Shown piece by piece: positions 2,581 to 48,718 of a DNA stretch of 64,000 bases. This DNA is from Escherichia phage 348Ecol098PP: sequence record OR062947.1; one strand, 5' to 3'. Under the pieces are notes generated by a model, which searched no databases, was not told the DNA's origin, and worked only from the letters and a program-made list of their open reading frames with translations. The position numbers and the translations under genes were made by a program. Numbering within the stretch: the first letter of the stretch is position 1; every line of letters begins with the position of its first letter.

Positions 2581-2751
2581 ATGATTTACGATATTAGTGC
2601 AGCAAGAGCTCCATCAATGGTTACTATTCCTGTTGAAGAATTAGATCGTCTTCAGAAAATTGAAGAGCTTCTTTGGGAAATTGAATCTGATTTGCCATCT
2701 GGGCTAGAATCCTGGGTTGATTATGAAGAGCTCAATAAGCTCCGCGGTTAA
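2581..2751 (+). CDS. hypothetical small acidic protein (56 aa)
   Basis: ATG at 2581 to TAA at 2749-2751, manually translated; below ORF-track size cutoff. Confidence 0.4.
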   Translation: MIYDISAARAPSMVTIPVEELDRLQKIEELLWEIESDLPSGLESWVDYEELNKLRG

Positions 2752-2879
2752 ACCATGGTATTCGGCTCGATGGGAGACGGTCGAGCCAGACGTCGAAACA
2801 GTTTACAACGACGAAGAAACGTGTTATGATGAACCTTCAATAAATGAATTAATTGATATGGAAATGGGAAGAGATTATT

Positions 2880-3050
2880 ATGCAAGTTAAATTATTATAC
2901 CGTTTATTAAAAAATGGCAAGCATGATTGGTATTTGCTTATTAAAACCGATCCGAATTTTTTCTCTGGACAACCATTTACAGTTCGTCCTACTAAACGTC
3001 AGCTTCGCAAAGCTAAACGTTCTCATCGAGACTTTTATAACGTTTACTAA
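2880..3050 (+). CDS. hypothetical small basic protein
   Basis: ATG 2880 with GGGAAGAG RBS; in frame with ORF-track ORF 2853..3050. Confidence 0.45.
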   Translation: MQVKLLYRLLKNGKHDWYLLIKTDPNFFSGQPFTVRPTKRQLRKAKRSHRDFYNVY

Positions 3051-3052
3051 AT

Positions 3053-3060
3053 TATAAATA
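3053..3060 (+). promoter_or_regulatory. late promoter core TATAAATA upstream of gene 49
   Basis: exact TATAAATA 30 nt upstream of the gene 49 ATG. Confidence 0.6.
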
Positions 3061-3083
3061 CCCTTATCTATTTAAGGTAAGGG
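3061..3083 (+). promoter_or_regulatory. RNA hairpin (CCCTTA / TAAGGG) overlapping the gene 49 Shine-Dalgarno
   Basis: 6-bp inverted repeat 3061-3066 / 3078-3083, right arm contains the AAGG RBS; late promoter would start transcription inside the left arm. Confidence 0.5.
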
Positions 3084-3089
3084 TTTATC

Positions 3090-3563
3090 ATGTTATTATC
3101 AGGCGCAAAATATAAAGAAGAAAAACAAAAATTTTATGATGCACAGAATGGTAAGTGTCCTATTTGCCACCGTGAATTAGACCCTGATGTTCAAGGTAAC
3201 CATCTTGACCACGACCATGAATTAAACGGGCCAAAAGCAGGTAGAGTTCGTGGGTTACTCTGTAATCTGTGCAATGCAGCAGAAGGTCAAATGAAGCATA
3301 AGTTCAACCGTTCCGGTCTTAAAAGACGTGATGTCGACTACCTCGAATGGCTTGAAGCTCTTCTTGCTTATTTGAAACAAGATTATTCTGATAATAATAT
3401 CCATCCTAATTTTGTTCCAGACAAAACTAAAGAGTTCTCAAGACTAGGTAAAGAGGAAATGATGTCCGAGATGCTTCAAAGAGGATTTGAATATAATGAA
3501 TCTGATACCAAAACACAATTAATAGCTTCATTCAAAAAGCAGCTTAGAAAGAGTTTAAAATGA
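3090..3563 (+). CDS. 49: endonuclease VII (Holliday junction resolvase)
   Basis: 157 aa; MLL.G..YKEEKQKFYDAQNGKC.IC.REL... HLDHDHELNGPKAG.VRGLLCNLCNAAEG matches T4 gp49 recalled from memory. Confidence 0.92.
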   Translation: MLLSGAKYKEEKQKFYDAQNGKCPICHRELDPDVQGNHLDHDHELNGPKAGRVRGLLCNLCNAAEGQMKHKFNRSGLKRRDVDYLEWLEALLAYLKQDYSDNNIHPNFVPDKTKEFSRLGKEEMMSEMLQRGFEYNESDTKTQLIASFKKQLRKSLK

Positions 3564-18656: not shown

Positions 18657-21368
18657 ATGAAAGAATTTTACTTAACGGTTGAACAGATTGGTGATTCAAT
18701 TTTTGAACGTTACATCGATTCTAACGGCCGTGAACGTACTCGTGAAGTAGAATATAAACCATCACTGTTTGCTCATTGTCCAGAAAGTCAGGCTACGAAA
18801 TATTTCGATATCTACGGTAAGCCGTGTACTCGTAAGTTGTTCGCTAATATGCGTGATGCCTCCCAATGGATTAAACGCATGGAAGATATCGGTCTTGAAG
18901 CACTTGGCATGGACGATTTCAAATTGGCGTATTTGTCTGACACTTATAACTATGAAATCAAATACGACCATACAAAAATTCGTGTGGCTAACTTCGACAT
19001 CGAAGTAACATCTCCCGATGGGTTCCCTGAGCCATCACAAGCAAAACATCCGATTGATGCTATCACCCATTATGACTCAATTGACGACAGGTTCTACGTA
19101 TTTGATCTATTGAATTCTCCATATGGTAATGTAGAAGAATGGTCTATTGAAATCGCTGCTAAGCTTCAAGAACAAGGCGGTGATGAAGTTCCATCCGAAA
19201 TTATCGATAAAATCATTTATATGCCGTTCGATAACGAAAAAGAATTGTTGATGGAATATCTCAACTTCTGGCAACAGAAAACTCCTGTCATTTTGACTGG
19301 ATGGAACGTTGAGTCATTTGATATTCCATATGTGTATAACCGAATCAAGAATATTTTTGGCGAATCTACTGCGAAACGTTTATCACCACATCGTAAAACT
19401 CGTGTTAAAGTTATCGAAAACATGTATGGTTCTCGTGAAATCATTACATTGTTCGGTATCTCTGTTCTTGATTACATTGACCTTTACAAAAAATTCTCTT
19501 TTACCAATCAACCATCGTATTCTCTGGATTACATTTCAGAATTTGAATTGAACGTTGGTAAACTGAAATATGACGGCCCTATTTCTAAGCTTCGTGAAAG
19601 CAATCACCAACGATATATTTCTTATAACATTATCGACGTGTATCGTGTATTGCAAATTGATGCTAAGCGTCAGTTCATCAACTTGAGTTTGGACATGGGT
19701 TATTATGCTAAAATTCAGATTCAATCTGTGTTTAGCCCAATTAAAACATGGGATGCTATTATTTTTAATAGCCTTAAAGAGCAGAACAAGGTGATTCCAC
19801 AAGGTCGTTCTCACCCGGTTCAACCTTATCCTGGCGCTTTTGTTAAGGAACCTATTCCAAATCGATACAAATATGTAATGAGTTTCGACCTTACATCTCT
19901 GTATCCAAGTATTATTCGCCAAGTGAATATTAGCCCGGAAACAATAGCAGGAACGTTTAAAGTAGCTCCATTGCATGATTATATTAACGCAATCGCTGAA
20001 CGTCCTTCAGATGTGTACAGTTGTTCTCCTAACGGCATGATGTATTATAAAGACCGTGATGGTGTAGTTCCAACTGAAATCACTAAAGTCTTTAATCAAC
20101 GTAAAGAACATAAAGGTTATATGCTTGCGGCTCAACGTAATGGCGAAATAATTAAAGAGGCATTGCATAATCCTAATCTTTCTGTTGATGAACCATTAGA
20201 TGTTGATTATCGTTTCGACTTCAGTGATGAGATTAAAGAAAAGATTAAAAAGTTGTCTGCTAAATCTCTTAATGAAATGTTGTTTAGAGCTCAACGTACT
20301 GAAGTTGCAGGTATGACTGCCCAAATTAACCGTAAATTGCTTATCAACTCACTTTATGGTGCACTTGGAAACGTTTGGTTCCGTTATTATGATTTGCGTA
20401 ATGCTACTGCAATCACAACATTTGGTCAAATGGCTTTACAGTGGATTGAACGTAAAGTTAATGAATATCTGAATGAAGTTTGTGGTACAGAAGGTGAAGC
20501 TTTCGTTCTTTATGGTGATACAGACTCTATTTACGTATCTGCTGATAAAATTATCGATAAGGTTGGTGAATCTAAATTCCGTGATACCAACCATTGGGTA
20601 GACTTCTTAGATAAGTTTGCACGTGAACGTATGGAACCAGCTATTGATAGAGGTTTCCGTGAAATGTGTGAATACATGAACAATAAACAACACTTAATGT
20701 TCATGGACCGAGAAGCTATCGCTGGTCCTCCACTTGGTTCTAAAGGTATTGGTGGATTCTGGACTGGTAAGAAACGTTATGCATTAAACGTGTGGGATAT
20801 GGAAGGTACTCGTTACGCTGAGCCTAAACTCAAAATCATGGGTCTAGAGACTCAGAAATCTTCGACTCCTAAAGCAGTACAGAAAGCTCTTAAAGAATGT
20901 ATTCGTCGTATGCTTCAAGAAGGTGAAGAATCATTACAAGAATATTTTAAAGAGTTTGAAAAAGAATTCCGTCAATTGAATTATATTAGCATCGCGTCTG
21001 TATCTTCTGCGAATAACATTGCTAAATATGATGTTGGTGGATTCCCTGGCCCCAAATGCCCATTCCATATTCGTGGAATTCTGACGTATAACCGGGCTAT
21101 CAAAGGTAATATCGATGCACCGCAAGTTGTAGAAGGTGAAAAAGTATATGTTCTGCCTTTACGTGAAGGAAACCCATTCGGTGATAAATGTATCGCATGG
21201 CCTTCTGGTACTGAAATCACAGATTTAATTAAAGACGACGTACTTCATTGGATGGACTACACTGTTCTCCTTGAGAAGACATTTATTAAACCACTTGAAG
21301 GATTCACATCAGCAGCGAAACTCGATTACGAGAAGAAAGCATCTCTGTTCGATATGTTCGATTTTTGA
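18657..21368 (+). CDS. 43: DNA polymerase gp43 (family B), RB69-type 903 aa
   Basis: MKEFYLTVEQIGDSIFERYIDSNGRERTREVEYKPSLFAHCPESQ... exo and pol motifs (FDIEV, YGDTDS). Confidence 0.97.
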   Translation: MKEFYLTVEQIGDSIFERYIDSNGRERTREVEYKPSLFAHCPESQATKYFDIYGKPCTRKLFANMRDASQWIKRMEDIGLEALGMDDFKLAYLSDTYNYEIKYDHTKIRVANFDIEVTSPDGFPEPSQAKHPIDAITHYDSIDDRFYVFDLLNSPYGNVEEWSIEIAAKLQEQGGDEVPSEIIDKIIYMPFDNEKELLMEYLNFWQQKTPVILTGWNVESFDIPYVYNRIKNIFGESTAKRLSPHRKTRVKVIENMYGSREIITLFGISVLDYIDLYKKFSFTNQPSYSLDYISEFELNVGKLKYDGPISKLRESNHQRYISYNIIDVYRVLQIDAKRQFINLSLDMGYYAKIQIQSVFSPIKTWDAIIFNSLKEQNKVIPQGRSHPVQPYPGAFVKEPIPNRYKYVMSFDLTSLYPSIIRQVNISPETIAGTFKVAPLHDYINAIAERPSDVYSCSPNGMMYYKDRDGVVPTEITKVFNQRKEHKGYMLAAQRNGEIIKEALHNPNLSVDEPLDVDYRFDFSDEIKEKIKKLSAKSLNEMLFRAQRTEVAGMTAQINRKLLINSLYGALGNVWFRYYDLRNATAITTFGQMALQWIERKVNEYLNEVCGTEGEAFVLYGDTDSIYVSADKIIDKVGESKFRDTNHWVDFLDKFARERMEPAIDRGFREMCEYMNNKQHLMFMDREAIAGPPLGSKGIGGFWTGKKRYALNVWDMEGTRYAEPKLKIMGLETQKSSTPKAVQKALKECIRRMLQEGEESLQEYFKEFEKEFRQLNYISIASVSSANNIAKYDVGGFPGPKCPFHIRGILTYNRAIKGNIDAPQVVEGEKVYVLPLREGNPFGDKCIAWPSGTEITDLIKDDVLHWMDYTVLLEKTFIKPLEGFTSAAKLDYEKKASLFDMFDF

Positions 21369-21408
21369 TATAATGACATGGACGGTAAACTAATTAAACG
21401 AGAGAAAT

Positions 21409-22044
21409 ATGAAAACTACTCCTATTACTATCGCTATTGACGCAATCATAAAACAATCTTCTTCTTTGGCCGCTATGGCCAAAGTAATTAGTCAAAACCC
21501 TGCTCGTTATAATGCTATTCTAGAAACTCTTCGACGTCCGGGACTTAGTAATTATGAAAGTCGTGTAATTATTACAGGTGTTGGTAAGAATGCTAATATT
21601 GCAACTAAAGCTTCTGAGACATTTGCTTCACTCGGTATCCCGAGTATGTACTTGAACACTGGGCATTATTCTCACGGCGATGCAGGATTCATTGCGCCTA
21701 ATGATGTGTTGATTCATATTAGTCGTTCTGGTAAAACTGAAGAAATGATAGGCGTGGCTAAGCATCTTAAAATGATTCGACCGAACGTCAAACAGATTCT
21801 GTTGCATTGTAACCCAGACATTCCACAAGAAAATGAAGCCCTTTTTGATTACTCTTTCTGTACAGGCATCGCAGTAGAGGTTGATGAGAATTCTCTGGCT
21901 CCGACTATGTCCACTACATTGTTGTTAGCGCTTATCGATACGTTTGCTATCAACCTTTCGTCTGAACGTGGATTTACCTCTAATGATTTCCTTAAGTTCC
22001 ATCCAGGCGGTGCACTAGGTGCCATGTTACGAGGCGAGCAATGA
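21409..22044 (+). CDS. SIS-domain sugar-phosphate isomerase, KdsD/KpsF/GutQ-type arabinose-5-phosphate isomerase-like (no CBS domains)
   Basis: GVGKNANIATKASETFASLGIPSMYLNTGHYSHGD, ISRSGKTEE, LAPTMSTTLLLAL, RGFTSNDFLKFHPGGALG match the API SIS-domain pattern from memory. Confidence 0.75.
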   Translation: MKTTPITIAIDAIIKQSSSLAAMAKVISQNPARYNAILETLRRPGLSNYESRVIITGVGKNANIATKASETFASLGIPSMYLNTGHYSHGDAGFIAPNDVLIHISRSGKTEEMIGVAKHLKMIRPNVKQILLHCNPDIPQENEALFDYSFCTGIAVEVDENSLAPTMSTTLLLALIDTFAINLSSERGFTSNDFLKFHPGGALGAMLRGEQ

Positions 22045-22184
22045 AAGCAATAACAATAGGACTTTTACTATTGATGCTTGTCATGACTATCTACTGGAGC
22101 TTAACGGCTCCAGTAATGATTCCAACACTTGTAATTGGATGGATTATGATTGGACTACAAGCAAAGTATGAATGCTTTAACTAG
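22041..22184 (+). CDS. small hydrophobic protein (47 aa, single/double TM)
   Basis: manual translation; ATGA overlap with isomerase stop. Confidence 0.4.
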   Translation: MKAITIGLLLLMLVMTIYWSLTAPVMIPTLVIGWIMIGLQAKYECFN

Positions 22185-22225
22185 AATAGTGTACAATACT
22201 CCTACTTACCAATGAGGACCACAAC

Positions 22226-23911
22226 ATGAAAAAAGCTGTTATTCTTGGTGCTGGACTAGCAACTCGTTTGTATCCAATAACGCATCATATTCCTAAGGTG
22301 CTTGTTAACTATAAACAAGACACTATTCTGAGCAATTTGTATACAATTTATTCTGACCTTGGCGCAGATGAAATTATTGTAGTAGTTCATTCAAAATTTG
22401 CTGGAACTGTTCGAGCTTATTGTGAGCAAGAAGGGTTCAATGTGACTATTCGTACAGTTGATGAAGCGTATGGTTCTGCTTATGCTCTTGCTAAATTGCA
22501 CAAAGATTTAGACGGCCATAATGTAATTGTTAACTGGTGTGATATTATTCCTGATTTTGGTTCATGGTCTTGGAATGTTAACGCAATCTATGTTAAGGGT
22601 GACGAATGTCGATATAATTTCGACGGTGAAAATATCACTAACGTAGGTTCAACAGGTGGTAATGTTGTAGGAATTTACCAGTTCAAAGACTGGGAATTCT
22701 ATATGGGTTCTACCGATGAGGAAATTCATGAATACTGCAAAGGACGTGATTTCGTAGAATTCCTTTACGGCAGTGCATTCAATAAATCAGAGCTTATGAA
22801 TCTAATTGATTTAGGTGATATGCCTAAACTTGAAAAGGCTCATGAAGTTCGTGAACTTAATCGTAGTTTTAATGCAGTTGAAATTGGTGAAGAAACTGTA
22901 ACTAAATTCGCATTAACCGAACAAGGCCGAGCTCTTCAGAAAGATGAGATTTCATGGTATCTTAAAGTGAAATCAGATTCAGTTCCTCAGTTAGTTTCTG
23001 TTAATGAAAATAACTTTGAAATGGAACGCATTAAAGGTAAGCCGGCATTTGAATATATTAAATCCAAATCGAGTCTCGCTCGTCCACAAATTGTTGATGC
23101 AATTTTAGATGCACTGAAATTCAGCACAGACACTTATTTTGTAAGTCCTGAAACTGTTCGTCGTGATTTCACTAAAGAATTCTATACGAAAGTTATTGAT
23201 CGTTGTGAAAGTATTCAACCATTGATTGATTCATTTGGTAAAATAACACATGTGAACTACACTAAGATTGGGCGTCTGAAGCCAATGTTGAAACAAGCTT
23301 TAGAACACCTTATTCGTTATCATAACCGTTCTCAGGGACAGTACTCTGTTATTCATGGTGACCCGAACTTCAGTAATACTATGATTACTGATAATGGCGA
23401 AGTCAAGTTTATCGACCCTCGTGGATATTTTGGTGAAACCAAGATTTACGGGCCAAAATTGTATGATGAAGCTAAAGTGCTTTACGCTGTTTCAGGATAT
23501 GATGAATTCAACGCTAATCCGACCTGGGGGCAGTTTACTATTGATGAAACAACTTGTAATGTGACTATTAACATCAATCCATTAGTTTACAAATATGGAA
23601 AGATGAGTTCGTTTAACGAGTATCATCATTTGGCGGTGGCAATTATCTGGATTGCATTAGGTGGTTATTTCAAGAATAATCCACTTAAAGCGGTAGCCGC
23701 ATATTATAAAGGTATGGAACTTCTGACTAAGCAATTACGTAACATGGGCCGTGTACTTCAGGACGGCACCATTAGTTATGACGTAGCAGAACCTGTAACG
23801 GCTACTCTGATTACAAAAAATCCTGGTAAATGGGTACTAACTGATAAAGAAACTGGTGTTTCCTATCGTCCAATCGGTGGCGATATCACTCATCAATGGG
23901 AACGAATCTAA
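22226..23911 (+). CDS. bifunctional sugar-1-phosphate nucleotidyltransferase / sugar anomeric kinase (APH/choline-kinase fold) fusion
   Basis: N-terminal AVILGAGLATRLYPIT..PK nucleotidyltransferase signature; C-terminal IHGDPNFSN and FIDPRG kinase motifs. Confidence 0.75.
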   Translation: MKKAVILGAGLATRLYPITHHIPKVLVNYKQDTILSNLYTIYSDLGADEIIVVVHSKFAGTVRAYCEQEGFNVTIRTVDEAYGSAYALAKLHKDLDGHNVIVNWCDIIPDFGSWSWNVNAIYVKGDECRYNFDGENITNVGSTGGNVVGIYQFKDWEFYMGSTDEEIHEYCKGRDFVEFLYGSAFNKSELMNLIDLGDMPKLEKAHEVRELNRSFNAVEIGEETVTKFALTEQGRALQKDEISWYLKVKSDSVPQLVSVNENNFEMERIKGKPAFEYIKSKSSLARPQIVDAILDALKFSTDTYFVSPETVRRDFTKEFYTKVIDRCESIQPLIDSFGKITHVNYTKIGRLKPMLKQALEHLIRYHNRSQGQYSVIHGDPNFSNTMITDNGEVKFIDPRGYFGETKIYGPKLYDEAKVLYAVSGYDEFNANPTWGQFTIDETTCNVTININPLVYKYGKMSSFNEYHHLAVAIIWIALGGYFKNNPLKAVAAYYKGMELLTKQLRNMGRVLQDGTISYDVAEPVTATLITKNPGKWVLTDKETGVSYRPIGGDITHQWERI

Positions 23912-24297
23912 TGCACCGTGTAGAAAACATGCTTAATCTTTGTTTTGATGTCGATGATTGTATAACAGAGTGGAATAACAATCGTGATTACGTGAACTTC
24001 AAACCAGACGTCGAAATGGTGTCTGCCATTAATGCCCTATATGATGCAGGGCATACCATAACGCTTTACACTGCTCGCGGTATGAAGTCAGTAGGTCCTG
24101 GTCGTATAGCAATTGACATTCTCCCAAGTCTGATTCAGAACTTGGCAAACATTGGCTTGAAGTACCATAATTTGCTAACACATAAACCAGTATATGATTG
24201 GATTATCGACGACAAAGCTATGCGTCCTGACGAATTCAAAGCTCTTATGAATAAAGGCGAATTCGAAACATTTAAATCATATAAACCGAATCTATAA
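23911..24297 (+). CDS. HAD-superfamily phosphatase
   Basis: motif I FDVDDCIT near N-terminus; TAATG overlap with upstream stop; ORF-track frame. Confidence 0.65.
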   Translation: MHRVENMLNLCFDVDDCITEWNNNRDYVNFKPDVEMVSAINALYDAGHTITLYTARGMKSVGPGRIAIDILPSLIQNLANIGLKYHNLLTHKPVYDWIIDDKAMRPDEFKALMNKGEFETFKSYKPNL

Positions 24298-24351
24298 TAA
24301 TTTAAGTAAGACCTGCAAAAACCATCGCAACAATTAACGCGAGATGCAAAA

Positions 24352-25512
24352 ATGAATACCTTTAAAATCGGAACGAATTTTGATTTAGCTCTTCTTGATA
24401 AAATCGTAGAGCTCAATAAAACTTATCCTAATAGCTTGATAAACGAAGTATACGGCTCTACAAGAGAAATGGCTTTTGTAGCAGCCAGACCTGATTTTAG
24501 GCTTCCTGACGTTGACAAAAAGATGTTAGAAGATTACGTTAAACGTTGTAACGAATTAGGTATTTGCTTTAACTATACACTCAACACGATAAATCCTGGT
24601 TCAAAAAGAGAACTAGTTGAGTGGAAGAAGAAAGCTATTCAGGATTATGTTCAGTATCTTTGGTCAATAGGCGTATGGCGTATTACTATCGCTAACCCTG
24701 TTGTTATGGAAATTGTTCGTGAAGTCAATAAAGACATTGAGATTGAAGTTTCAACAATTCTACATGTCGATGCTGTAACTCAAATCAAATACTTGCATGA
24801 CCAATATAATATCAAAAAGGTCTGCTGTGGAATTCATAAGAACCGTTCAGTTTCTTTCCTGAAGCGTGCAGCAGAGTTTTGCAATAAGAACAATATAATA
24901 TTTGAAGTTCTCGTAAATGAATTCTGCTCTAATGCTGGTAAAGGGTATACAACACATTGTAGTTATCGTGACTCTTGCTATATTTTCCATAGCACCGATG
25001 TTACAGTAGATGATGCCAAATCCTTAAATGGATATCCTATGCAGCACTGTATTAAAGCTCGTGATACAGACCCATTTAACTGGTTGAGAACTCGTTTTGT
25101 TCGTCCTCAAGATTTGAAACTTTATAATGATATTGGTATCACTCAATTCAAAGTTTCAGGACGTACAGGTAGCACCGACTACATTTTGAAAGTTCTTGAA
25201 GCTTATGCTTCTGAAAAGTTTGAAGGTAATTTGTTGGAATTGTGGAAGCCTTTAGAGACTATTTTCACTCTTGAAAATGAGACCGAGTTTTCACATACGG
25301 TAAATATTGAAACCTCTTTGTTAGATGGCTTTTTAGAAAAAAGGTGGTTCAAACATCCAGATTTCGATTGTGCTAATGAAATCTGCGGGACGACGTGTAC
25401 ATATTGTGAAAGATATTATAAACGTCAGTTATCTAAAAATGGGTTAGCAGAAAACTCTATATCTATTATTGATATAACTAACTCTGATGACGCTTTGAGG
25501 TACCCGGAATGA
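24352..25512 (+). CDS. peptidase-U32-family (TIM barrel, Cys-rich) protein
   Basis: NEVYGSTREMAFVAARPDF, ICFNYTLNTINPG, EFCSNAGKGYTTHCSYRDSC resemble U32 proteins as recalled from memory. Confidence 0.5.
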   Translation: MNTFKIGTNFDLALLDKIVELNKTYPNSLINEVYGSTREMAFVAARPDFRLPDVDKKMLEDYVKRCNELGICFNYTLNTINPGSKRELVEWKKKAIQDYVQYLWSIGVWRITIANPVVMEIVREVNKDIEIEVSTILHVDAVTQIKYLHDQYNIKKVCCGIHKNRSVSFLKRAAEFCNKNNIIFEVLVNEFCSNAGKGYTTHCSYRDSCYIFHSTDVTVDDAKSLNGYPMQHCIKARDTDPFNWLRTRFVRPQDLKLYNDIGITQFKVSGRTGSTDYILKVLEAYASEKFEGNLLELWKPLETIFTLENETEFSHTVNIETSLLDGFLEKRWFKHPDFDCANEICGTTCTYCERYYKRQLSKNGLAENSISIIDITNSDDALRYPE

Positions 25513-25790
25513 TTTCTAGAAAAACTTTTAACCACCAACTTAATGAAGAGATTTTGACTATGAAAATTAACAGCAACGAACAAATTCTTAAAAAGGCCCT
25601 TATGGGCCTGTTTGAAACTAAAGCGGCTAAAGTGATTAAAGAAACCTGTTCAACTAGAATACTACGCTGATGCATTTCTTCATAGTGTTCTTGGAAGTAT
25701 CGATGCTGAAGCTTTACGTTATATCAACATCGCTAAGAAATTCAAATAAGCTTTATGAATTGAGTATATAATAACTGTATTGAGGTAAAC

Positions 25791-26507
25791 ATGGGAAAAC
25801 ATAACACAATGAAATATATTAAAGCCGCAGATTTTCAATCCGCATTTAAAGCTGTCAATCGTGAAATTTTAGAAAATCCACAGTTCGTTACTGACTCTCG
25901 TATTGGACGTTGTAATGAAATTGGGTCTATGACAGTAGTTGTTGATACCCCTTCATCATTCAAAATGACCGACCCACGTATTAATCGCATCTCTTATGAA
26001 TATGCTGAAGATTTCTGGAAATTTATGATTTCTGGTGGTACTGATGCAGAAGAAGCATTTAAGGCATATCCTAACGTTGCTAAATTTATTTCTAAACCTA
26101 AATCAGATGCTTTGCCTGCAAACTTCAACACTTTCTACGGTCCACGAATTGCGGCCCAGTTACCAGCTCTTCTCAAAGAACTTAAAGAGAAACCTAATTC
26201 ACGAAGAGTTGTGTTTCAAATTCTTGAAAGTTCAGATCAGGCTTTGCTTGATTCGGATGAAACACTTGAATATCCATGTACTGACTCAGTGACTTATTAT
26301 ATTCGTGATGGTAAGCTTTATACCCACTGTCATATGCGTTCTCAGAACTGTGCTGTTGTTATGCAGTTGGATTTTTATCTCCAAGGAAAATTACTTCATT
26401 ATATCGCTAACGAATGTGGTGTAGAAGTTGGTGATTATACTCATACCATGGTAAGTGCCCATGTGTTTGAACGTGATTTTGATTATGTTAAAGGATTCCT
26501 TGACTAA
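25791..26507 (+). CDS. 42: dCMP hydroxymethylase (thymidylate-synthase fold)
   Basis: PNSRRVVFQI and YPCTDSVTYYIRDGKLYTHCHMRSQN align with the SRR and catalytic Cys regions of T4 gp42. Confidence 0.8.
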   Translation: MGKHNTMKYIKAADFQSAFKAVNREILENPQFVTDSRIGRCNEIGSMTVVVDTPSSFKMTDPRINRISYEYAEDFWKFMISGGTDAEEAFKAYPNVAKFISKPKSDALPANFNTFYGPRIAAQLPALLKELKEKPNSRRVVFQILESSDQALLDSDETLEYPCTDSVTYYIRDGKLYTHCHMRSQNCAVVMQLDFYLQGKLLHYIANECGVEVGDYTHTMVSAHVFERDFDYVKGFLD

Positions 26508-27406
26508 TGGCTATTTTCCGCGTACCTATCTTGAGTATGCGGTCTTATGAAACTGGACAGTATGCTATCCTTAAGGATGGCAACTTCCAACTTCATTTGC
26601 ACCGTGCTAATCCGGGTGATGTGATTACATATCCACGTAATGCATCTGATATTAAAGAATGTGAACGTCTTTTCCCAGAATTTAAGTTTGTTCCATTATG
26701 GTATAAAGATAACGCATATAACACTCGTAAATATTTCTGGTCTGAAAATGAATTTGTGGTTGATTCATTAATTGATTATTATGATTGTGATTTTCTAATC
26801 ACAGATATCACTGGATATGACGGTACTTTTGACGTAGAATTCAATTTCAATATCACTGCAGACCCTAATAAACCACGTTTTTATATTGACGAATTCTTAA
26901 AAACCGATATGTTGTCGGTTAATCGTTCACTTCAAACTACTGTGTTGAATAAACGTCAAAAGGAAGTGCTGGTTAACGCTGGTGCCGATGGTAATAAGAT
27001 TATCGTAACCCAGAAAGTTATACGTCCTTCCATCATGCAGCGTCTTGTAGGTGATTTGGCTCCTATTCATCTAGATGGTATTTTTCATCCATTTCGAATT
27101 AGTGATCCGTGCTATCGTTTTGAACAAGTGGTTGAATGCGCGATTCAATTAGGTCAACCGCTTTATATAACCGATCCAAATAATAGCTTCGACAGAAATA
27201 AGTATCCTGAAGAAGCGTTGATTCGAATTTTTAAACCAACTAAAACTGAGTACTATCAAATTCTTAAAGGACGACCGAAGATTCAATATTTCGAAAATCC
27301 TGAAGAAGTATTTCATCCAGGTCTTGGTGAGTTCATCTACTTTAACGCTTTAATTTCTTCGCCGTATAATATACCTAAATATGAAGATGTCGTAATCGAG
27401 GAATAA
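26507..27406 (+). CDS. hypothetical protein (299 aa) in the syntenic slot of T4 beta-glucosyltransferase; function unknown
   Basis: ORF track; TAATG coupling to gene 42; no recognisable beta-gt similarity. Confidence 0.8.
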   Translation: MAIFRVPILSMRSYETGQYAILKDGNFQLHLHRANPGDVITYPRNASDIKECERLFPEFKFVPLWYKDNAYNTRKYFWSENEFVVDSLIDYYDCDFLITDITGYDGTFDVEFNFNITADPNKPRFYIDEFLKTDMLSVNRSLQTTVLNKRQKEVLVNAGADGNKIIVTQKVIRPSIMQRLVGDLAPIHLDGIFHPFRISDPCYRFEQVVECAIQLGQPLYITDPNNSFDRNKYPEEALIRIFKPTKTEYYQILKGRPKIQYFENPEEVFHPGLGEFIYFNALISSPYNIPKYEDVVIEE

Positions 27407-27407
27407 A

Positions 27408-27956
27408 ATGGCTAAAATTATTTTAGTAGATGGCCCAGATAATGCTGGTAAAACAACTTTCATTAATGACATAATGGAAATTAGTGAAAGATATGTAAAG
27501 ATTGATTTCCCTAAACGAACAGTTGATGGACGTTTCGATGTTAAGTCTCGAAATGAAGTTGGCTGTTTCGAAACGATGTTGAATTATTTAGACCCTACTA
27601 AGATTTATCTGTTAGACCGTGGATATATTAGTAACTGGGTTTATGGACGTATTCGACAAGACGCGGACTCGGTTCTTGACGTTTATGAACAGGATTATGT
27701 TCGTCTTTGCCAAAACCATGATGTGTTCACAATTATTTTAACACGTAACGAAATGACTGAAAGTTTTGAAGACGACCTTATTACTTTGTCTTCATTCGGT
27801 TTTAATACAGTCATTTCACATTTTGAAGAGTTTGCAATTCATAACAAAATCCAAACGTATCAATTACTTAATCATGATGGTGCTAACAAAGTTATAGGAT
27901 TTAATGCAAGCGAACGTAATGATTTGATTACAGAAATCATCAAATGGGCTCGTTAA
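27408..27956 (+). CDS. P-loop kinase (thymidylate/nucleoside-monophosphate kinase-like)
   Basis: Walker A ILVDGPDNAGKTTF; size 182 aa; GAGGAA RBS. Confidence 0.7.
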   Translation: MAKIILVDGPDNAGKTTFINDIMEISERYVKIDFPKRTVDGRFDVKSRNEVGCFETMLNYLDPTKIYLLDRGYISNWVYGRIRQDADSVLDVYEQDYVRLCQNHDVFTIILTRNEMTESFEDDLITLSSFGFNTVISHFEEFAIHNKIQTYQLLNHDGANKVIGFNASERNDLITEIIKWAR

Positions 27957-28054
27957 GAGCCATTTAAAGTTTTAAATGCTGTATAACCCTTAGTATATAA
28001 TCATCTTATCTTTTAAACATGAGTAAAATATAATGATGCCTATGGAAAAATACA

Positions 28055-29227
28055 ATGTCTGATTTAAAATCTCGTCTGATTAAAGCTTCTACTTCTAAAA
28101 TGACTGCAGACTTGACTAAGTCTAAGCTGTTTAATAATCGTGATGAAGTCCCTACTCGTATTCCGATGTTGAATATTGCACTAGGTGGTGCTCTGAATGC
28201 AGGATTGCAATCAGGCTTGACTATTTTTGCTGCACCTTCTAAACATTTTAAAACATTGTTTGGACTGACCATGGTTGCAGCATATATGAAGAAATATAAA
28301 GATGCAATTTGTTTGTTCTATGATTCAGAATTTGGTGCTTCAGAATCTTATTTTCGTTCAATGGGTGTTGATTTAGACCGTGTAGTTCATACTCCGATTC
28401 AATCTGTCGAACAACTTAAAGTTGATATGACTAATCAGCTTGACGCGATTGAACGTGGTGATAAAGTTATTATCTTTATCGATTCAATCGGTAATACTGC
28501 ATCTAAGAAAGAAACCGAAGATGCGTTGAACGAGAAAGTTGTAGGTGATATGTCTCGTGCTAAGGCACTTAAATCTCTGTTCCGCATTGTGACTCCTTAT
28601 CTGACTATTAAAGATATTCCATGTGTTGCAATCAACCATACAGCAATGGAAATCGGCGGACTATATCCTAAAGAGATTATGGGCGGCGGTACAGGTATTC
28701 TTTACTCTGCTAACACTGTATTCTTTATCTCTAAACGTCAGGTTAAAGAAGGTACAGAATTGACCGGTTATGACTTCACGTTGAAAGCAGAAAAATCTCG
28801 CACAGTTAAAGAGAAATCTACTTTCCCGATCACGGTTAATTTTGATGGCGGTATTGACCCATTCAGTGGCTTGTTAGAAATGGCAACTGAAATTGGTTTT
28901 GTAGTTAAGCCTAAAGCCGGGTGGTATGCTCGTGAATTCCTTGACGAAGAAACAGGCGAAATGATTCGTGAAGAAAAATCATGGCGTGCTAAAGCTACTG
29001 ATTGTGTAGAATTTTGGGGGCCGTTGTTTAAACATAAGCCTTTCCGAGATGCAATTGAAACTAAATATAAACTAGGTGCTATCTCTTCTATTAAAGAAGT
29101 TGATGACGCTGTTAACGACCTTATTAATTGCAAAGCAACAACTAAAGTTCCGGTTAAAACTTCTGATGCTCCGTCTGCAGCAGATATAGAAAACGACCTT
29201 GACGAAATGGAAGATTTCGATGAATAA
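28055..29227 (+). CDS. uvsX: recombinase UvsX (RecA-like)
   Basis: 390 aa; N-terminal MSDLKSRLIKASTSK...; RecA fold motifs. Confidence 0.95.
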   Translation: MSDLKSRLIKASTSKMTADLTKSKLFNNRDEVPTRIPMLNIALGGALNAGLQSGLTIFAAPSKHFKTLFGLTMVAAYMKKYKDAICLFYDSEFGASESYFRSMGVDLDRVVHTPIQSVEQLKVDMTNQLDAIERGDKVIIFIDSIGNTASKKETEDALNEKVVGDMSRAKALKSLFRIVTPYLTIKDIPCVAINHTAMEIGGLYPKEIMGGGTGILYSANTVFFISKRQVKEGTELTGYDFTLKAEKSRTVKEKSTFPITVNFDGGIDPFSGLLEMATEIGFVVKPKAGWYAREFLDEETGEMIREEKSWRAKATDCVEFWGPLFKHKPFRDAIETKYKLGAISSIKEVDDAVNDLINCKATTKVPVKTSDAPSAADIENDLDEMEDFDE

Positions 29228-29561
29228 TCTCGATGATTTAAATCTAGAAATCGTTGATGAATCCCCTTCTTCGGAAGGGGAAGACATTCGCAAAGAACGA
29301 GTGTTTAATGAATCTCTTAAAATTGTCCGTTCAGCAATGGAAAATGTCATTCAAGAGATTCTGATTACACTTGAAGACGGTTCCCATCATATAGTCTATA
29401 TTACAAAACTAGACTGGGTTGATGGTAAAATCGTAATGGACTTTGCAGTTCTTGACCAGGACAGAAAAGCAGAACTTGCACCACATGTTGAAAAATGTGT
29501 TACAATGCAAGTACAACAAGCTTTTAATGAACGAACCAAGAAAAAATTTAAATTCTTTTAA
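29220..29561 (+). CDS. 40: gp40-like head assembly protein
   Basis: synteny uvsX-40-41; ATG 29220 in ORF-track frame. Confidence 0.7.
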   Translation: MNNLDDLNLEIVDESPSSEGEDIRKERVFNESLKIVRSAMENVIQEILITLEDGSHHIVYITKLDWVDGKIVMDFAVLDQDRKAELAPHVEKCVTMQVQQAFNERTKKKFKFF

Positions 29562-47617: not shown

Positions 47618-48718
47618 ATGAAAGTTATGTTTATCCCATCTCGTGCAGTCCCATTTAACCCAGAACGTGTACAAGGTGGTCTTGAAGCAGTACATTTAAA
47701 TGTGTTGAAATATCTTGTGTCCATCGGTGCTGATATTGATTATATCGGCTTTGATAATGACACATTTGGTGATTGGAAGGTTAATCATCATCCTGTTGGT
47801 CATCTGACTAAATTCAGTCTAGGTATGAGTTATACTATGGCTCGTAAGATTGTTGAACTGGCCGGCATCCATGAATACGATTTTGTTGTTACTATGGAAC
47901 CGACTAAACTAACCGTTCAGGCAATTAAAGACGCAGGTCTCTCTAAAGTTCATAAGAATTTTATGGCAACACCATTTGAACCTGTATCTCGTGGCATTGT
48001 TCAAATTTGGGACCAGACTATTCAAATTCATAAGAATGGCGGTAAGAGTTATGCTCCTACTAAAGCCTTCCGTGAATTTGAACGCAAATATTGTTATATG
48101 ACTTCAGGTCTGACTGACAAAATCGATTATGATTATTGGCGAGCAAATCCGTTGTTTGAAGCCGAAGATTATCCGGTTATTTGTTTGAATGAGAAACCTG
48201 AAGTTCTTCCGGCGACGGATCTGATTATTAGTGCACAACGTTATGACACTAAAATGCGTCGTACTGATGTTGCTCTTGAAGCGATTAAAGCACTAGGCGA
48301 AAATGGTGCAGGATACTGTCCAAGCAAATGGGCGCCACCAGCTAAATATCCTGTTATTATCGATGCTCCACACAGTGAAATCATGGAACGTCTTAAAACA
48401 GCTAAAGCACTTATTAATACGTGTCCTGACACAGGTACGGTAGAGAATAGTTCTATTGAAGCCATCTCTAAAGGTGTCCCTGTAATCCAGTTAGTTTTTA
48501 AGGATTATCCTCATGCGACATTCGAATACGACCCAGATACTGTGCGTGTAGAAATTGATTCCTCTACTCCTAAGAAAGAAGTAGTTGCGCTTTACACAAA
48601 AGCTGTATTAGAATTCACTGACACATACGAAGCTCGAGTTAAACGTGCTGAAGCAGTATGGAAGAAGTATAACCGAGATGCAGTTGTTGCGATGTGGGAT
48701 AAAATCTTCACAGCGTAA
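47618..48718 (+). CDS. GT-B-fold glycosyltransferase (GT4-like); candidate DNA hmC sugar transferase
   Basis: N-terminal MKVMFIPSRAVPFNPERVQGGLEAVHLNVLKYL and C-terminal TGTVENSSIEAISKGVPVI resemble GT4 signatures. Confidence 0.6.
   Translation: MKVMFIPSRAVPFNPERVQGGLEAVHLNVLKYLVSIGADIDYIGFDNDTFGDWKVNHHPVGHLTKFSLGMSYTMARKIVELAGIHEYDFVVTMEPTKLTVQAIKDAGLSKVHKNFMATPFEPVSRGIVQIWDQTIQIHKNGGKSYAPTKAFREFERKYCYMTSGLTDKIDYDYWRANPLFEAEDYPVICLNEKPEVLPATDLIISAQRYDTKMRRTDVALEAIKALGENGAGYCPSKWAPPAKYPVIIDAPHSEIMERLKTAKALINTCPDTGTVENSSIEAISKGVPVIQLVFKDYPHATFEYDPDTVRVEIDSSTPKKEVVALYTKAVLEFTDTYEARVKRAEAVWKKYNRDAVVAMWDKIFTA

What the first reader, a model, noticed from the sequence alone, without database searches (positions are those of the whole stretch)
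26507..27406. Orphan 299-aa protein in the slot where T4 encodes beta-glucosyltransferase
It is translationally coupled to dCMP hydroxymethylase, as beta-gt is in T4, but I see no recognisable beta-gt or GT signature. It may be a divergent DNA sugar transferase (possibly adding a second sugar) or a modification accessory factor.
Basis: inference. Interest (0 to 1): 0.55.

Follow-up and report, generated by a model that had tools for sequence, protein, structure and literature searches.

The report
Phage DNA arabinose transferase, already described
The gene is real, but it is a known, widespread phage enzyme family, predicted to attach the first arabinose sugar to 5-hydroxycytosine in RB69-like phage DNA, so it is not an orphan or a new find.

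Summary

It is not an orphan. Homologues occur in 348 phage genomes. It is the same gene as RB69 ORF047c+046c, which the RB69 record splits by one extra T. A 2026 NAR paper already predicts that gene to be 'arabinosyltransferase 1'.

The upstream gene is not a dCMP hydroxymethylase. It is the flavin-dependent dCMP 5-hydroxylase: it carries L143E/D169N/N177D and is near-identical to PDB 9iqc. The window also holds the UDP-arabinofuranose genes and the second transferase (PDB 9iqz).

Best reading: the enzyme puts the base-proximal alpha-D-arabinofuranose on 5-hydroxycytosine. This is not shown biochemically in any text I could read. Whether the acceptor is DNA or a nucleotide is also unsettled.

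One lead is absent from the papers I could read. The downstream thymidylate-kinase-like gene is syntenic with the transferase wherever I looked, and is fused to it in distant relatives. This hints at nucleotide-level glycosylation.

The parts
26507..27406 (+). The finding: a 299-aa minimal GT-B glycosyltransferase. It is the orthologue of RB69 gp46:47, DLP3 gp79 and Thanatos TH1_063, and the predicted first (alpha) arabinofuranosyltransferase acting on 5-hydroxycytosine.
25791..26507 (+). Thymidylate-synthase homologue: flavin-dependent dCMP 5-hydroxylase (5hodCMP synthase), not a hydroxymethylase. Its stop codon overlaps the start of the finding.
   Evidence: Pfam Thymidylat_synt. Near-identical to PDB 9iqc/9ir2/9iqu, E 6e-163. 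L143E, D169N and N177D against E. coli ThyA. Only 25% identical to T4 gp42, which keeps D169. Activity shown for RB69 gp48 in PMC13326640.
27408..27956 (+). 182-aa thymidylate-kinase-like P-loop protein (RB69 gp45 homologue). It starts one base after the finding's stop. It is syntenic with the transferase in every locus inspected and fused to it in distant relatives.
   Evidence: phrog_761 thymidylate kinase, E 1.6e-45. Synteny. Fusion proteins. hhalign of the ORF182 family against the fused domain: probability 91.7%, E 7.8e-7.
21409..22044 (+). Arabinose-5-phosphate isomerase (SIS domain), the first step towards UDP-arabinofuranose.
   Evidence: Pfam SIS; phrog_5670 arabinose 5-phosphate isomerase. 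RB69 gp55 equivalent.
22226..23911 (+). 561-aa bifunctional protein: N-terminal sugar-1-phosphate nucleotidyltransferase and C-terminal kinase (RB69 gp52:53 equivalent, AfhE-like). It makes UDP-arabinofuranose.
   Evidence: Pfam NTP_transferase at residues 3-99, plus sub-threshold kinase-family hits at about 308-409. phrog_4098. HY126 AfhE activity as cited in PMC13326640.
23896..24297 (+). HAD-type phosphatase (RB69 gp51 equivalent, AfhF-like): Araf-1,5-bisphosphate to Araf-1-phosphate.
   Evidence: phrog_1238. Role as described in PMC13326640.
24352..25512 (+). Peptidase-U32-like protein (RB69 gp50 homologue). It belongs to the module; its role is unresolved.
   Evidence: Pfam Peptidase_U32, E 6.3e-11; phrog_5757. 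Listed as 'sugar or heterocycle reductase' in PMC13326640.
47618..48718 (+). 366-aa second GT-B glycosyltransferase (RB69 ORF003c/gp3), between the topoisomerase gene and rIIA. It is the predicted beta-arabinosyltransferase 2.
   Evidence: Near-identical to PDB 9iqz/9ir0 'phage HY126 glycosyltransferase', E 2.8e-249. Distribution limited to Mosigvirus/Shigella phages, Acinetobacter phages (two matching places in each listed record) and one Tegunavirus record. No profile similarity to the finding.

Best explanation
ORF299 is a compact GT-B nucleotide-sugar glycosyltransferase. It is the initiating arabinosyltransferase of the 5-hydroxycytosine arabinosylation pathway of RB69-like (Mosigvirus) phages.

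Proposed pathway:
1. The upstream enzyme hydroxylates dCMP at C5. This is shown for the RB69 and HY126 orthologues.
2. The isomerase, the bifunctional kinase/uridylyltransferase and the phosphatase encoded 2-5 kb upstream make UDP-D-arabinofuranose. This is shown for HY126, as cited in PMC13326640.
3. ORF299 transfers arabinofuranose from that donor to the 5-hydroxyl of cytosine, giving the alpha-linked, base-proximal sugar. This step is inferred. The closest folds are retaining GT4 enzymes, which would fit retention of an alpha-configured donor (its anomeric configuration is not stated in the texts I could read).
4. The 366-aa transferase at 47618-48718 then adds the beta-1,3 second arabinose.

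The donor should bind the C-terminal Rossmann half, where R197, H270-P-G272 and the always-acidic position 275 lie. The acceptor should bind the unusually conserved N-terminal half (S10-M-R-S13, K23-D-G-N26, R33, R74). Whether the acceptor is 5-hydroxycytosine in DNA or a free nucleotide is not settled.
For: - Context: the full pathway is in the window. The order ThyA-like, GT, kinase is kept in Bas47, RB69, Thanatos-2 and one metagenomic phage at 36-38% identity; in a second the ThyA-like gene lies in the same cluster four genes upstream.
- Phyletic pattern: ORF299 homologues occur in Escherichia, Klebsiella, Serratia, Yersinia, Proteus, Shewanella and Acinetobacter phages. The 366-aa transferase occurs once per listed Mosigvirus record and twice per listed Acinetobacter record, and not in the other genera above. 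This fits the published sugar counts: mono in Thanatos and LC53, di in RB69, Bas46/47 and NP, tri in DLP3.
- Conserved residues lie in loops after C-terminal-domain strands and at the N-terminus of helix 271-278, the usual diphosphate-binding positions in GT-B enzymes.
Against: - I found no biochemical demonstration for this protein family. PMC13326640 reports no activity of purified DLP3 gp79 (or the other transferases tested singly) on 5hoC-containing DNA with UDP-Araf or UDP-Arap.
- The Thanatos homologue TH1_063 was reported to make UDP-xylose from UTP and xylose-1-phosphate, and it did not glycosylate DNA, dCMP or dCTP. Those acceptors lacked the 5-hydroxyl.
- No sequence-level link to any glycosyltransferase family.
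- The GT4 E-x7-E motif is not kept; position 267 is variable.
- The family is acidic (median pI 5.2), unlike T4 beta-gt at pI 9.05. That is atypical for a DNA-binding enzyme.
- The two key papers, He et al. 2026 (Nat Chem Biol) and Mahler et al. 2025 (Cell Host Microbe), could not be read.
Confidence: 0.75

Rival explanations
1. Same enzyme and same donor, but the acceptor is the free nucleotide (5-hydroxy-dCMP), not DNA. ORF299 would glycosylate 5hodCMP as it leaves the hydroxylase. The adjacent thymidylate-kinase-like ORF182 would then phosphorylate the bulky arabinosyl-5hodCMP, and the polymerase would incorporate the already glycosylated triphosphate. That is pre-replicative glycosylation, unlike T4.
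For: - The order ThyA-like, GT, kinase, with overlapping or abutting start and stop codons, is conserved at long range.
- Distant family members are natural fusions of the transferase with a kinase domain, in both orders. That domain is homologous to ORF182: hhalign probability 91.7%, E 7.8e-7.
- ORF182 keeps a Walker A motif and a DR motif.
- RB69 already has a T4-gp1-type dNMP kinase that handles 5hodCMP, so the second kinase has no assigned job.
- The acceptor-side N-terminal domain is very conserved, with invariant R12, K23, R33 and R74. The protein is acidic.
- DLP3 gp79 was inactive on 5hoC-DNA, and the authors state they cannot tell nucleotide-level from DNA-level arabinosylation.
Against: - Expressing the hydroxylase with the gp1-type kinase is enough to put unglycosylated 5hodC into plasmid DNA, so 5hodCTP is made and polymerised.
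- The third arabinose in DLP3 is added on DNA.
- T4-family precedent is post-replicative glycosylation.
- Fusion and synteny show functional linkage, not reaction order.
- Pfam hits for the fused kinase domains are below the curated cut-offs.
- He et al. 2026 may already have settled the point; I could not read it.
Confidence: 0.3
2. It is not a transferase to cytosine but a UDP-pentose pyrophosphorylase that makes the activated sugar, as published for the Thanatos homologue TH1_063.
For: In vitro, TH1_063 incubated with UTP, xylose-1-phosphate and pyrophosphatase gave a UDP-xylose peak (PMC12838424). The Thanatos-2 homologue is 47.5% identical to ORF299 and syntenic.
Against: - The fold is GT-B, not the nucleotidyltransferase fold.
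- The window has a true NTP_transferase domain in the 561-aa ORF. Its HY126 orthologue AfhE is reported to be the UDP-arabinose pyrophosphorylase.
- On this reading, Thanatos, reported to encode a single ara-GT, would have no transferase at all.
- The assay used a surrogate sugar. The product could come from a reverse or side reaction of a glycosyltransferase; that is my inference.
Confidence: 0.05
3. It has a GT-B fold but is not a transferase. It could be a UDP-sugar 2-epimerase-like or mutase-like enzyme that remodels the donor, or a non-catalytic partner that activates another enzyme.
For: The top Foldseek PDB hits are non-hydrolysing UDP-GlcNAc 2-epimerases at E about 5e-6. The GT4 E-x7-E motif is absent. 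DLP3 gp76 and gp77 work only together, so obligate partnerships exist in this system.
Confidence: 0.07
4. One reading: it adds the second sugar, and the 366-aa ORF adds the first.
For: Both are GT-B enzymes, and no published assay that I could read assigns the order for RB69.
Against: ORF299 homologues are present in phages reported to carry a single pentose (Thanatos; LC53's relatives). Those genera have no 366-aa family member. The 366-aa family paralogues of DLP3, gp76 and gp77, extend sugars already on DNA.
Confidence: 0.04

Closest known systems
RB69 gp46:47 (ORF047c+ORF046c), DLP3 gp79 and Bas47 bas47_0146: 'arabinosyltransferase 1' of the 5-hydroxycytosine arabinosylation cluster (PMC13326640)
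   Different: Nothing material. Here the ORF is intact. As far as I could read, the published function is a prediction without a positive enzyme assay.
Retaining GT4-type GT-B glycosyltransferases (sucrose-phosphate synthase 6kih, BshA 6n1x, PimA 2gej, MshA 3c4q)
   Same: Two-Rossmann GT-B architecture. It has an Arg after the first strand of the donor domain and an acidic residue in the diphosphate/ribose helix. A retaining outcome would give the alpha-linked first arabinose if the donor is alpha-configured (not stated in the texts I could read).
   Different: Much shorter: 299 aa against 340-500. No detectable sequence similarity and no Pfam Glycos_transf_1 match. The first Glu of E-x7-E is not conserved; an invariant His-Pro-Gly sits there instead. 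The acceptor is a modified nucleobase.
T4 beta-glucosyltransferase (GT63) and alpha-glucosyltransferase (GT72)
   Different: No sequence relationship to beta-gt, and beta-gt is not among the top structural hits. The sugar is arabinofuranose rather than glucose. The acceptor hydroxyl is directly on C5 rather than on a hydroxymethyl group. The protein is acidic rather than basic. DNA as the acceptor is unproven.
Phage HY126 glycosyltransferase (PDB 9iqz/9ir0), RB69 ORF003c/gp3
   Different: It is a separate family: hhalign finds nothing between the two. It is restricted to phages with di- or tri-arabinosylation and is predicted to add the beta-linked distal sugars.
Shewanella phage Thanatos TH1_063 (PMC12838424)
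   Same: Homologue at 47.5% identity, in the same ThyA-like, GT, kinase-like arrangement.
   Different: It was published as a UDP-xylose pyrophosphorylase. The fold and the genomic context do not support that as the physiological role.

Membership tests
GT-B fold glycosyltransferase superfamily | Two Rossmann-like beta/alpha/beta domains facing a cleft | tested here: met
GT-B fold glycosyltransferase superfamily | Nucleotide-sugar-binding residues in the C-terminal domain (basic residue for the diphosphate, acidic residue for the ribose) | tested here: inconclusive
   Invariant R197, K246 and H270-P-G272, plus always-acidic position 275, lie in loops and helix N-termini of the C-terminal half. 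I could not run a residue-level superposition or a ligand model.
GT-B fold glycosyltransferase superfamily | Glycosyl transfer from an NDP-sugar | not testable with these tools
   Needs an enzyme assay. The published attempt with the DLP3 homologue on 5hoC-DNA was negative.
CAZy GT4 / Pfam Glycos_transf_1 | Match to the family profile | tested here: not met
   No Pfam or NCBIfam hit for the protein or for any of 48 family members at E <= 1. The family profile finds no glycosyltransferase in PDB.
CAZy GT4 / Pfam Glycos_transf_1 | E-x7-E motif | tested here: not met
   E267...E275 has the right spacing in this protein, but position 267 is K, T or other in most homologues. Only position 275 is conserved, as E or D.
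T4 beta-glucosyltransferase (GT63) | Sequence or profile similarity to T4 beta-gt | tested here: not met
T4 beta-glucosyltransferase (GT63) | The acceptor is 5-hydroxymethylcytosine made by a dCMP hydroxymethylase | tested here: not met
   The upstream enzyme has the D169N 5-hydroxylase signature and matches the HY126 hydroxylase structure. RB69-type DNA carries 5-O-arabinosyl cytosine.
RB69 gp46:47 / DLP3 gp79 'arabinosyltransferase 1' family (phrog_3891) | Orthology by sequence | tested here: met
   phrog_3891 at E 3.6e-156. 97.4% DNA identity to RB69p047+p046. BFVD hits to RB69 ORF047c and ORF046c at TM 0.98.
RB69 gp46:47 / DLP3 gp79 'arabinosyltransferase 1' family (phrog_3891) | Lies directly downstream of a D169N thymidylate-synthase homologue, within a cluster encoding UDP-arabinose synthesis | tested here: met
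   for the window. for relatives.
Sugar-1-phosphate nucleotidyltransferase (the function claimed for TH1_063) | NTP_transferase domain and fold | tested here: not met
   No Pfam NTP_transferase hit. The structural neighbours are GT-B enzymes, not nucleotidyltransferases. The domain is present instead in ORF 22226-23911.

The most novel reading that the evidence does not exclude
The first arabinose is added before replication. ORF299 would glycosylate free 5-hydroxy-dCMP. The kinase-like ORF182, always adjacent and sometimes fused, would be a dedicated kinase for the glycosylated nucleotide. The phage polymerase would then incorporate arabinosyl-5-hydroxy-dCTP directly. That would be a nucleotide-level glycosylation route to hypermodified DNA, opposite to the T4 paradigm of glycosylating finished DNA.
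Probability: 0.25. Interest if true: 0.7.

Novelty: already known. Interest (0 to 1): 0.25.

Why it matters
Arabinosylated 5-hydroxycytosine shields these phages from restriction enzymes, the Brig1 glycosylase and several CRISPR-Cas types (as summarised in PMC13216743 and PMC13326640). Mosigviruses are common candidates for phage therapy. The initiating transferase is the one step of the pathway that still lacks a positive assay in the texts I could read.

Two things matter for annotation. This gene should be named a putative arabinosyltransferase, and its neighbour a dCMP 5-hydroxylase rather than a hydroxymethylase. Of the 80 phage records listed, none names this gene a glycosyltransferase: most call it 'hypothetical protein' and a few 'RNA polymerase binding protein'.

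The transferase-kinase fusion is a concrete lead on where the first sugar goes on. It can be tested directly with purified proteins.

Tried and rejected
- Sequence family searches on the protein and on 48 homologues (Pfam, NCBIfam; phmmer and profile hmmsearch against PDB) found nothing meaningful. The only hits were chance matches such as DEPTOR at E 0.2.
- Profile-profile comparison with the second transferase family and with T4 beta-gt showed no relationship.
- Promoter and terminator scans of 21000-29500 gave no more sites than shuffled sequence, and the T4 late-promoter motif does not occur inside the module, so the scans gave no evidence on the transcription unit.
- BLASTP, phmmer and a simple HMM of the fusion-protein extensions against the window proteins found nothing. 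Only profile-profile comparison with a proper ORF182 family alignment revealed the kinase homology.
- I tried to read He et al. 2026 (Nat Chem Biol) and Mahler et al. 2025 (Cell Host Microbe). Neither is held. Papers citing them gave no detail on this protein.
- Rejected: beta-gt homologue, orphan gene, and nucleotidyltransferase. Reasons are given in the membership table and the rival explanations.

Full report
**The observation**

An ATG-initiated ORF of 299 codons lies at 26507-27406 on the + strand. Its ATG shares one base with the TAA of the upstream 238-aa ORF (TAATG). The next ORF, of 182 aa, begins one base after its stop. Downstream lie uvsX, gene 40 and gene 41 homologues. Upstream lie a DNA-polymerase-sized ORF and a run of sugar-metabolism genes.

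In T4 the order is 43, imm.1, imm, 42, b-gt, segA, uvsX, 40, 41. So the ORF occupies the beta-gt slot. In T4, however, genes 42 and b-gt are 23 nt apart and do not overlap.

The gene is real:
- Its DNA is 95-99% identical in 153 Mosigvirus-type phage records.
- Against RB69 it differs at 23 of 900 bases, with 18 synonymous and 5 non-synonymous codon changes.
- Protein homologues extend to about 36% identity.

**It is not an orphan, but sequence methods cannot read it**

The protein matches phrog_3891 ('unknown function') at E 3.6e-156. tblastn finds it in 348 phage genomes from hosts in Escherichia, Acinetobacter, Klebsiella, Shigella, Serratia, Enterobacter, Proteus, Yersinia, Shewanella and others. 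An exhaustive HMM search of 1.84 billion representatives gives 229 clusters.

No sequence method assigns it to a family:
- Pfam, NCBIfam and PDB sequences give nothing for the protein.
- None of 48 homologues scanned one by one gets a meaningful hit.
- The family profile finds nothing.

**The fold**

An AlphaFold2 model built on a 48-sequence alignment is very confident: pLDDT 94.7, pTM 0.89, and no segment below 70. It consists of two Rossmann-like halves.

| Search | Main result |
|---|---|
| Foldseek vs PDB | GT-B enzymes, including UDP-GlcNAc 2-epimerases and MshA |
| Foldseek vs BFVD | Viral GT-B enzymes; the two RB69 half-ORFs at TM 0.98 |

At 299 aa this is a minimal GT-B enzyme. Three features of its conserved residues stand out:
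- The invariant residues R197, K246 and H270-P-G272, and the always-acidic position 275, sit where GT-B enzymes bind the nucleotide diphosphate. I could not superpose residues, so this is suggestive only.
- The GT4 E-x7-E motif is not conserved.
- The N-terminal, acceptor-side half is the more conserved half, which is unusual. It contains S10-M-R-S13, K23-D-G-N26, R33 and R74.

**What the neighbours say**

The upstream gene is a thymidylate-synthase homologue. It is only 25% identical to T4 gp42. It carries L143E, D169N and N177D in E. coli ThyA numbering. PMC13326640 gives D169N as the mark of dCMP 5-hydroxylases, and T4 gp42 keeps D169. The gene is near-identical to PDB 9iqc/9ir2/9iqu from phage HY126 (E 6e-163).

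The window also encodes:
- an arabinose-5-phosphate isomerase;
- a 561-aa nucleotidyltransferase-kinase;
- a HAD phosphatase;
- a U32-like protein;
- at 47618-48718, a 366-aa protein near-identical to the HY126 glycosyltransferase solved with UDP (9iqz/9ir0, E 2.8e-249).

This is the RB69 gp45-gp55 module plus gp3.

**The literature**

Thomas et al. 2018 found arabinose in RB69 DNA and proposed ORF003c as the transferase (PMC6024577).

Lee et al. 2026 (PMC13326640) report the following:
- RB69 cytosine is beta-D-Araf-(1,3)-alpha-D-Araf-5-hydroxy-dC.
- gp48 makes 5hodCMP using a flavin.
- ORFs 46 and 47 are one gene split by a sequencing error.
- That gene is modelled as 'arabinosyltransferase 1'.

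I confirmed the split directly. The RB69 record has one extra T at alignment column 545. A second paper describes the same two putative transferases in Mosigvirus NP (PMC13390438).

The same NAR paper reports no activity of the purified DLP3 homologue on 5hoC-DNA. It states that nucleotide-level and DNA-level first arabinosylation cannot be told apart.

He et al. 2026 and Mahler et al. 2025 probably contain more, but neither is held in the library.

**First sugar or second sugar**

| Family | Phage records | Where found |
|---|---|---|
| ORF299 family | 348 | All the genera listed above, including Shewanella phage Thanatos and Serratia ATCC 39006 phages |
| 366-aa family | 211 | Mosigvirus and Shigella phages (one match in each listed record), Acinetobacter phages (two per listed record), one Tegunavirus |

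The published sugar counts are mono for Thanatos and LC53, di for RB69, Bas46/47 and NP, and tri for DLP3. The copy number of the 366-aa family tracks the number of extra sugars, while ORF299 is present in all these groups. That pattern points to ORF299 as the initiating transferase.

In Thanatos-2 the homologue again starts on the stop codon of the ThyA-like gene, and a 186-aa gene follows it.

**A conflicting published claim**

The Thanatos homologue TH1_063 was reported to form UDP-xylose from UTP and xylose-1-phosphate, and was named a pyrophosphorylase (PMC12838424). Three points argue against this as the physiological role:
- The fold is GT-B, not a nucleotidyltransferase fold.
- A true NTP_transferase domain sits in the 561-aa neighbour.
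- The HY126 orthologue of that neighbour is reported to make UDP-arabinose.

The acceptors tried in that study also lacked the 5-hydroxyl group.

**A lead absent from the papers I could read**

The 182-aa thymidylate-kinase-like gene follows the transferase in Mosigvirus, RB69 and Thanatos. It also does so in two metagenomic phages whose transferase is only 36-38% identical.

Among distant family members, at least eight cluster representatives are fusion proteins. Seven have the transferase followed by a domain of about 190 aa, and one has the reverse order. That domain carries an EGFDRIGKDT P-loop. Profile-profile comparison shows it is homologous to the ORF182 family: probability 91.7%, E 7.8e-7 over 131 columns.

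RB69 already has a gp1-type dNMP kinase that phosphorylates 5hodCMP. The ORF299 family is acidic, with median pI 5.2, whereas T4 beta-gt has pI 9.05.

Together these facts allow, but do not prove, a route in which 5hodCMP is glycosylated first and then phosphorylated by a dedicated kinase. Against this, 5hodC can be incorporated into DNA unglycosylated, and later sugars are added on DNA. I put the probability at about 0.25.

Other distant members carry an N-terminal HAD-like domain.

**Verdict**

However:
- It is the already described initiating arabinosyltransferase candidate of the RB69-type 5-hydroxycytosine pathway.
- It is not an orphan.
- It is not related to beta-gt.
- It is not next to a hydroxymethylase.

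Novelty is nil at the level of identity. Residual interest lies in the unproven activity, the unresolved acceptor and the kinase fusion.

Noticed in passing
window 25509-25748: The small gene homologous to RB69p049 and bas47_0148 (79 aa) has one extra A here (AAAGAAACC against AAAG-AACC, near 25642). The reading frame therefore stops at TGA 25668-25670 after 53 codons. It could be a real frameshift or a sequencing error in a homopolymer-like run.
   Followed up: partly
window 27408-27956; proteins P0232, P0237, P0238, P0244, P0250, P0257, P0263, P0264: The thymidylate-kinase-like ORF182 family is homologous (hhalign probability 91.7%) to a domain fused to ORF299-type transferases in metagenomic proteins, in both domain orders. 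This is a Rosetta-stone link between the transferase and a kinase that has no assigned role.
   Followed up: yes
proteins P0144, P0154, P0155, P0157, P0172, P0173, P0207, P0228: Another set of distant family members carries an N-terminal domain of about 140-190 aa with HAD-phosphatase-like motifs (DFDGIF ... ITGDS) ahead of the transferase domain. The Pfam hits are below threshold.
   Followed up: partly
L003 605-1123; L005 6739-7293: In two distant metagenomic phages a Flavodoxin_2 (FMN-reductase-like) gene lies in the same cluster as the D169N thymidylate-synthase homologue, directly upstream of it in L005. It is a plausible supplier of reduced flavin for the hydroxylase. The window has no such gene in this module.
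   Followed up: no
L002 (RB69 NC_004928) 2598-3498: The RefSeq RB69 record still splits this gene into RB69p046 and RB69p047 because of a single extra T. It also has Ile at residue 113, where 46 of 48 homologues have Asn. The record probably contains sequencing errors here.
   Followed up: yes
window 47618-48718 and 26507-27406: Both transferases resemble retaining GT4 enzymes by fold, yet the reported linkages are alpha for the first sugar and beta for the second. If both use the same UDP-Araf donor, one of them must invert. I could not resolve which, or how.
   Followed up: no
The upstream gene is widely labelled dCMP hydroxymethylase or thymidylate synthase. Both labels appear to be wrong for this lineage.
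   Followed up: partly
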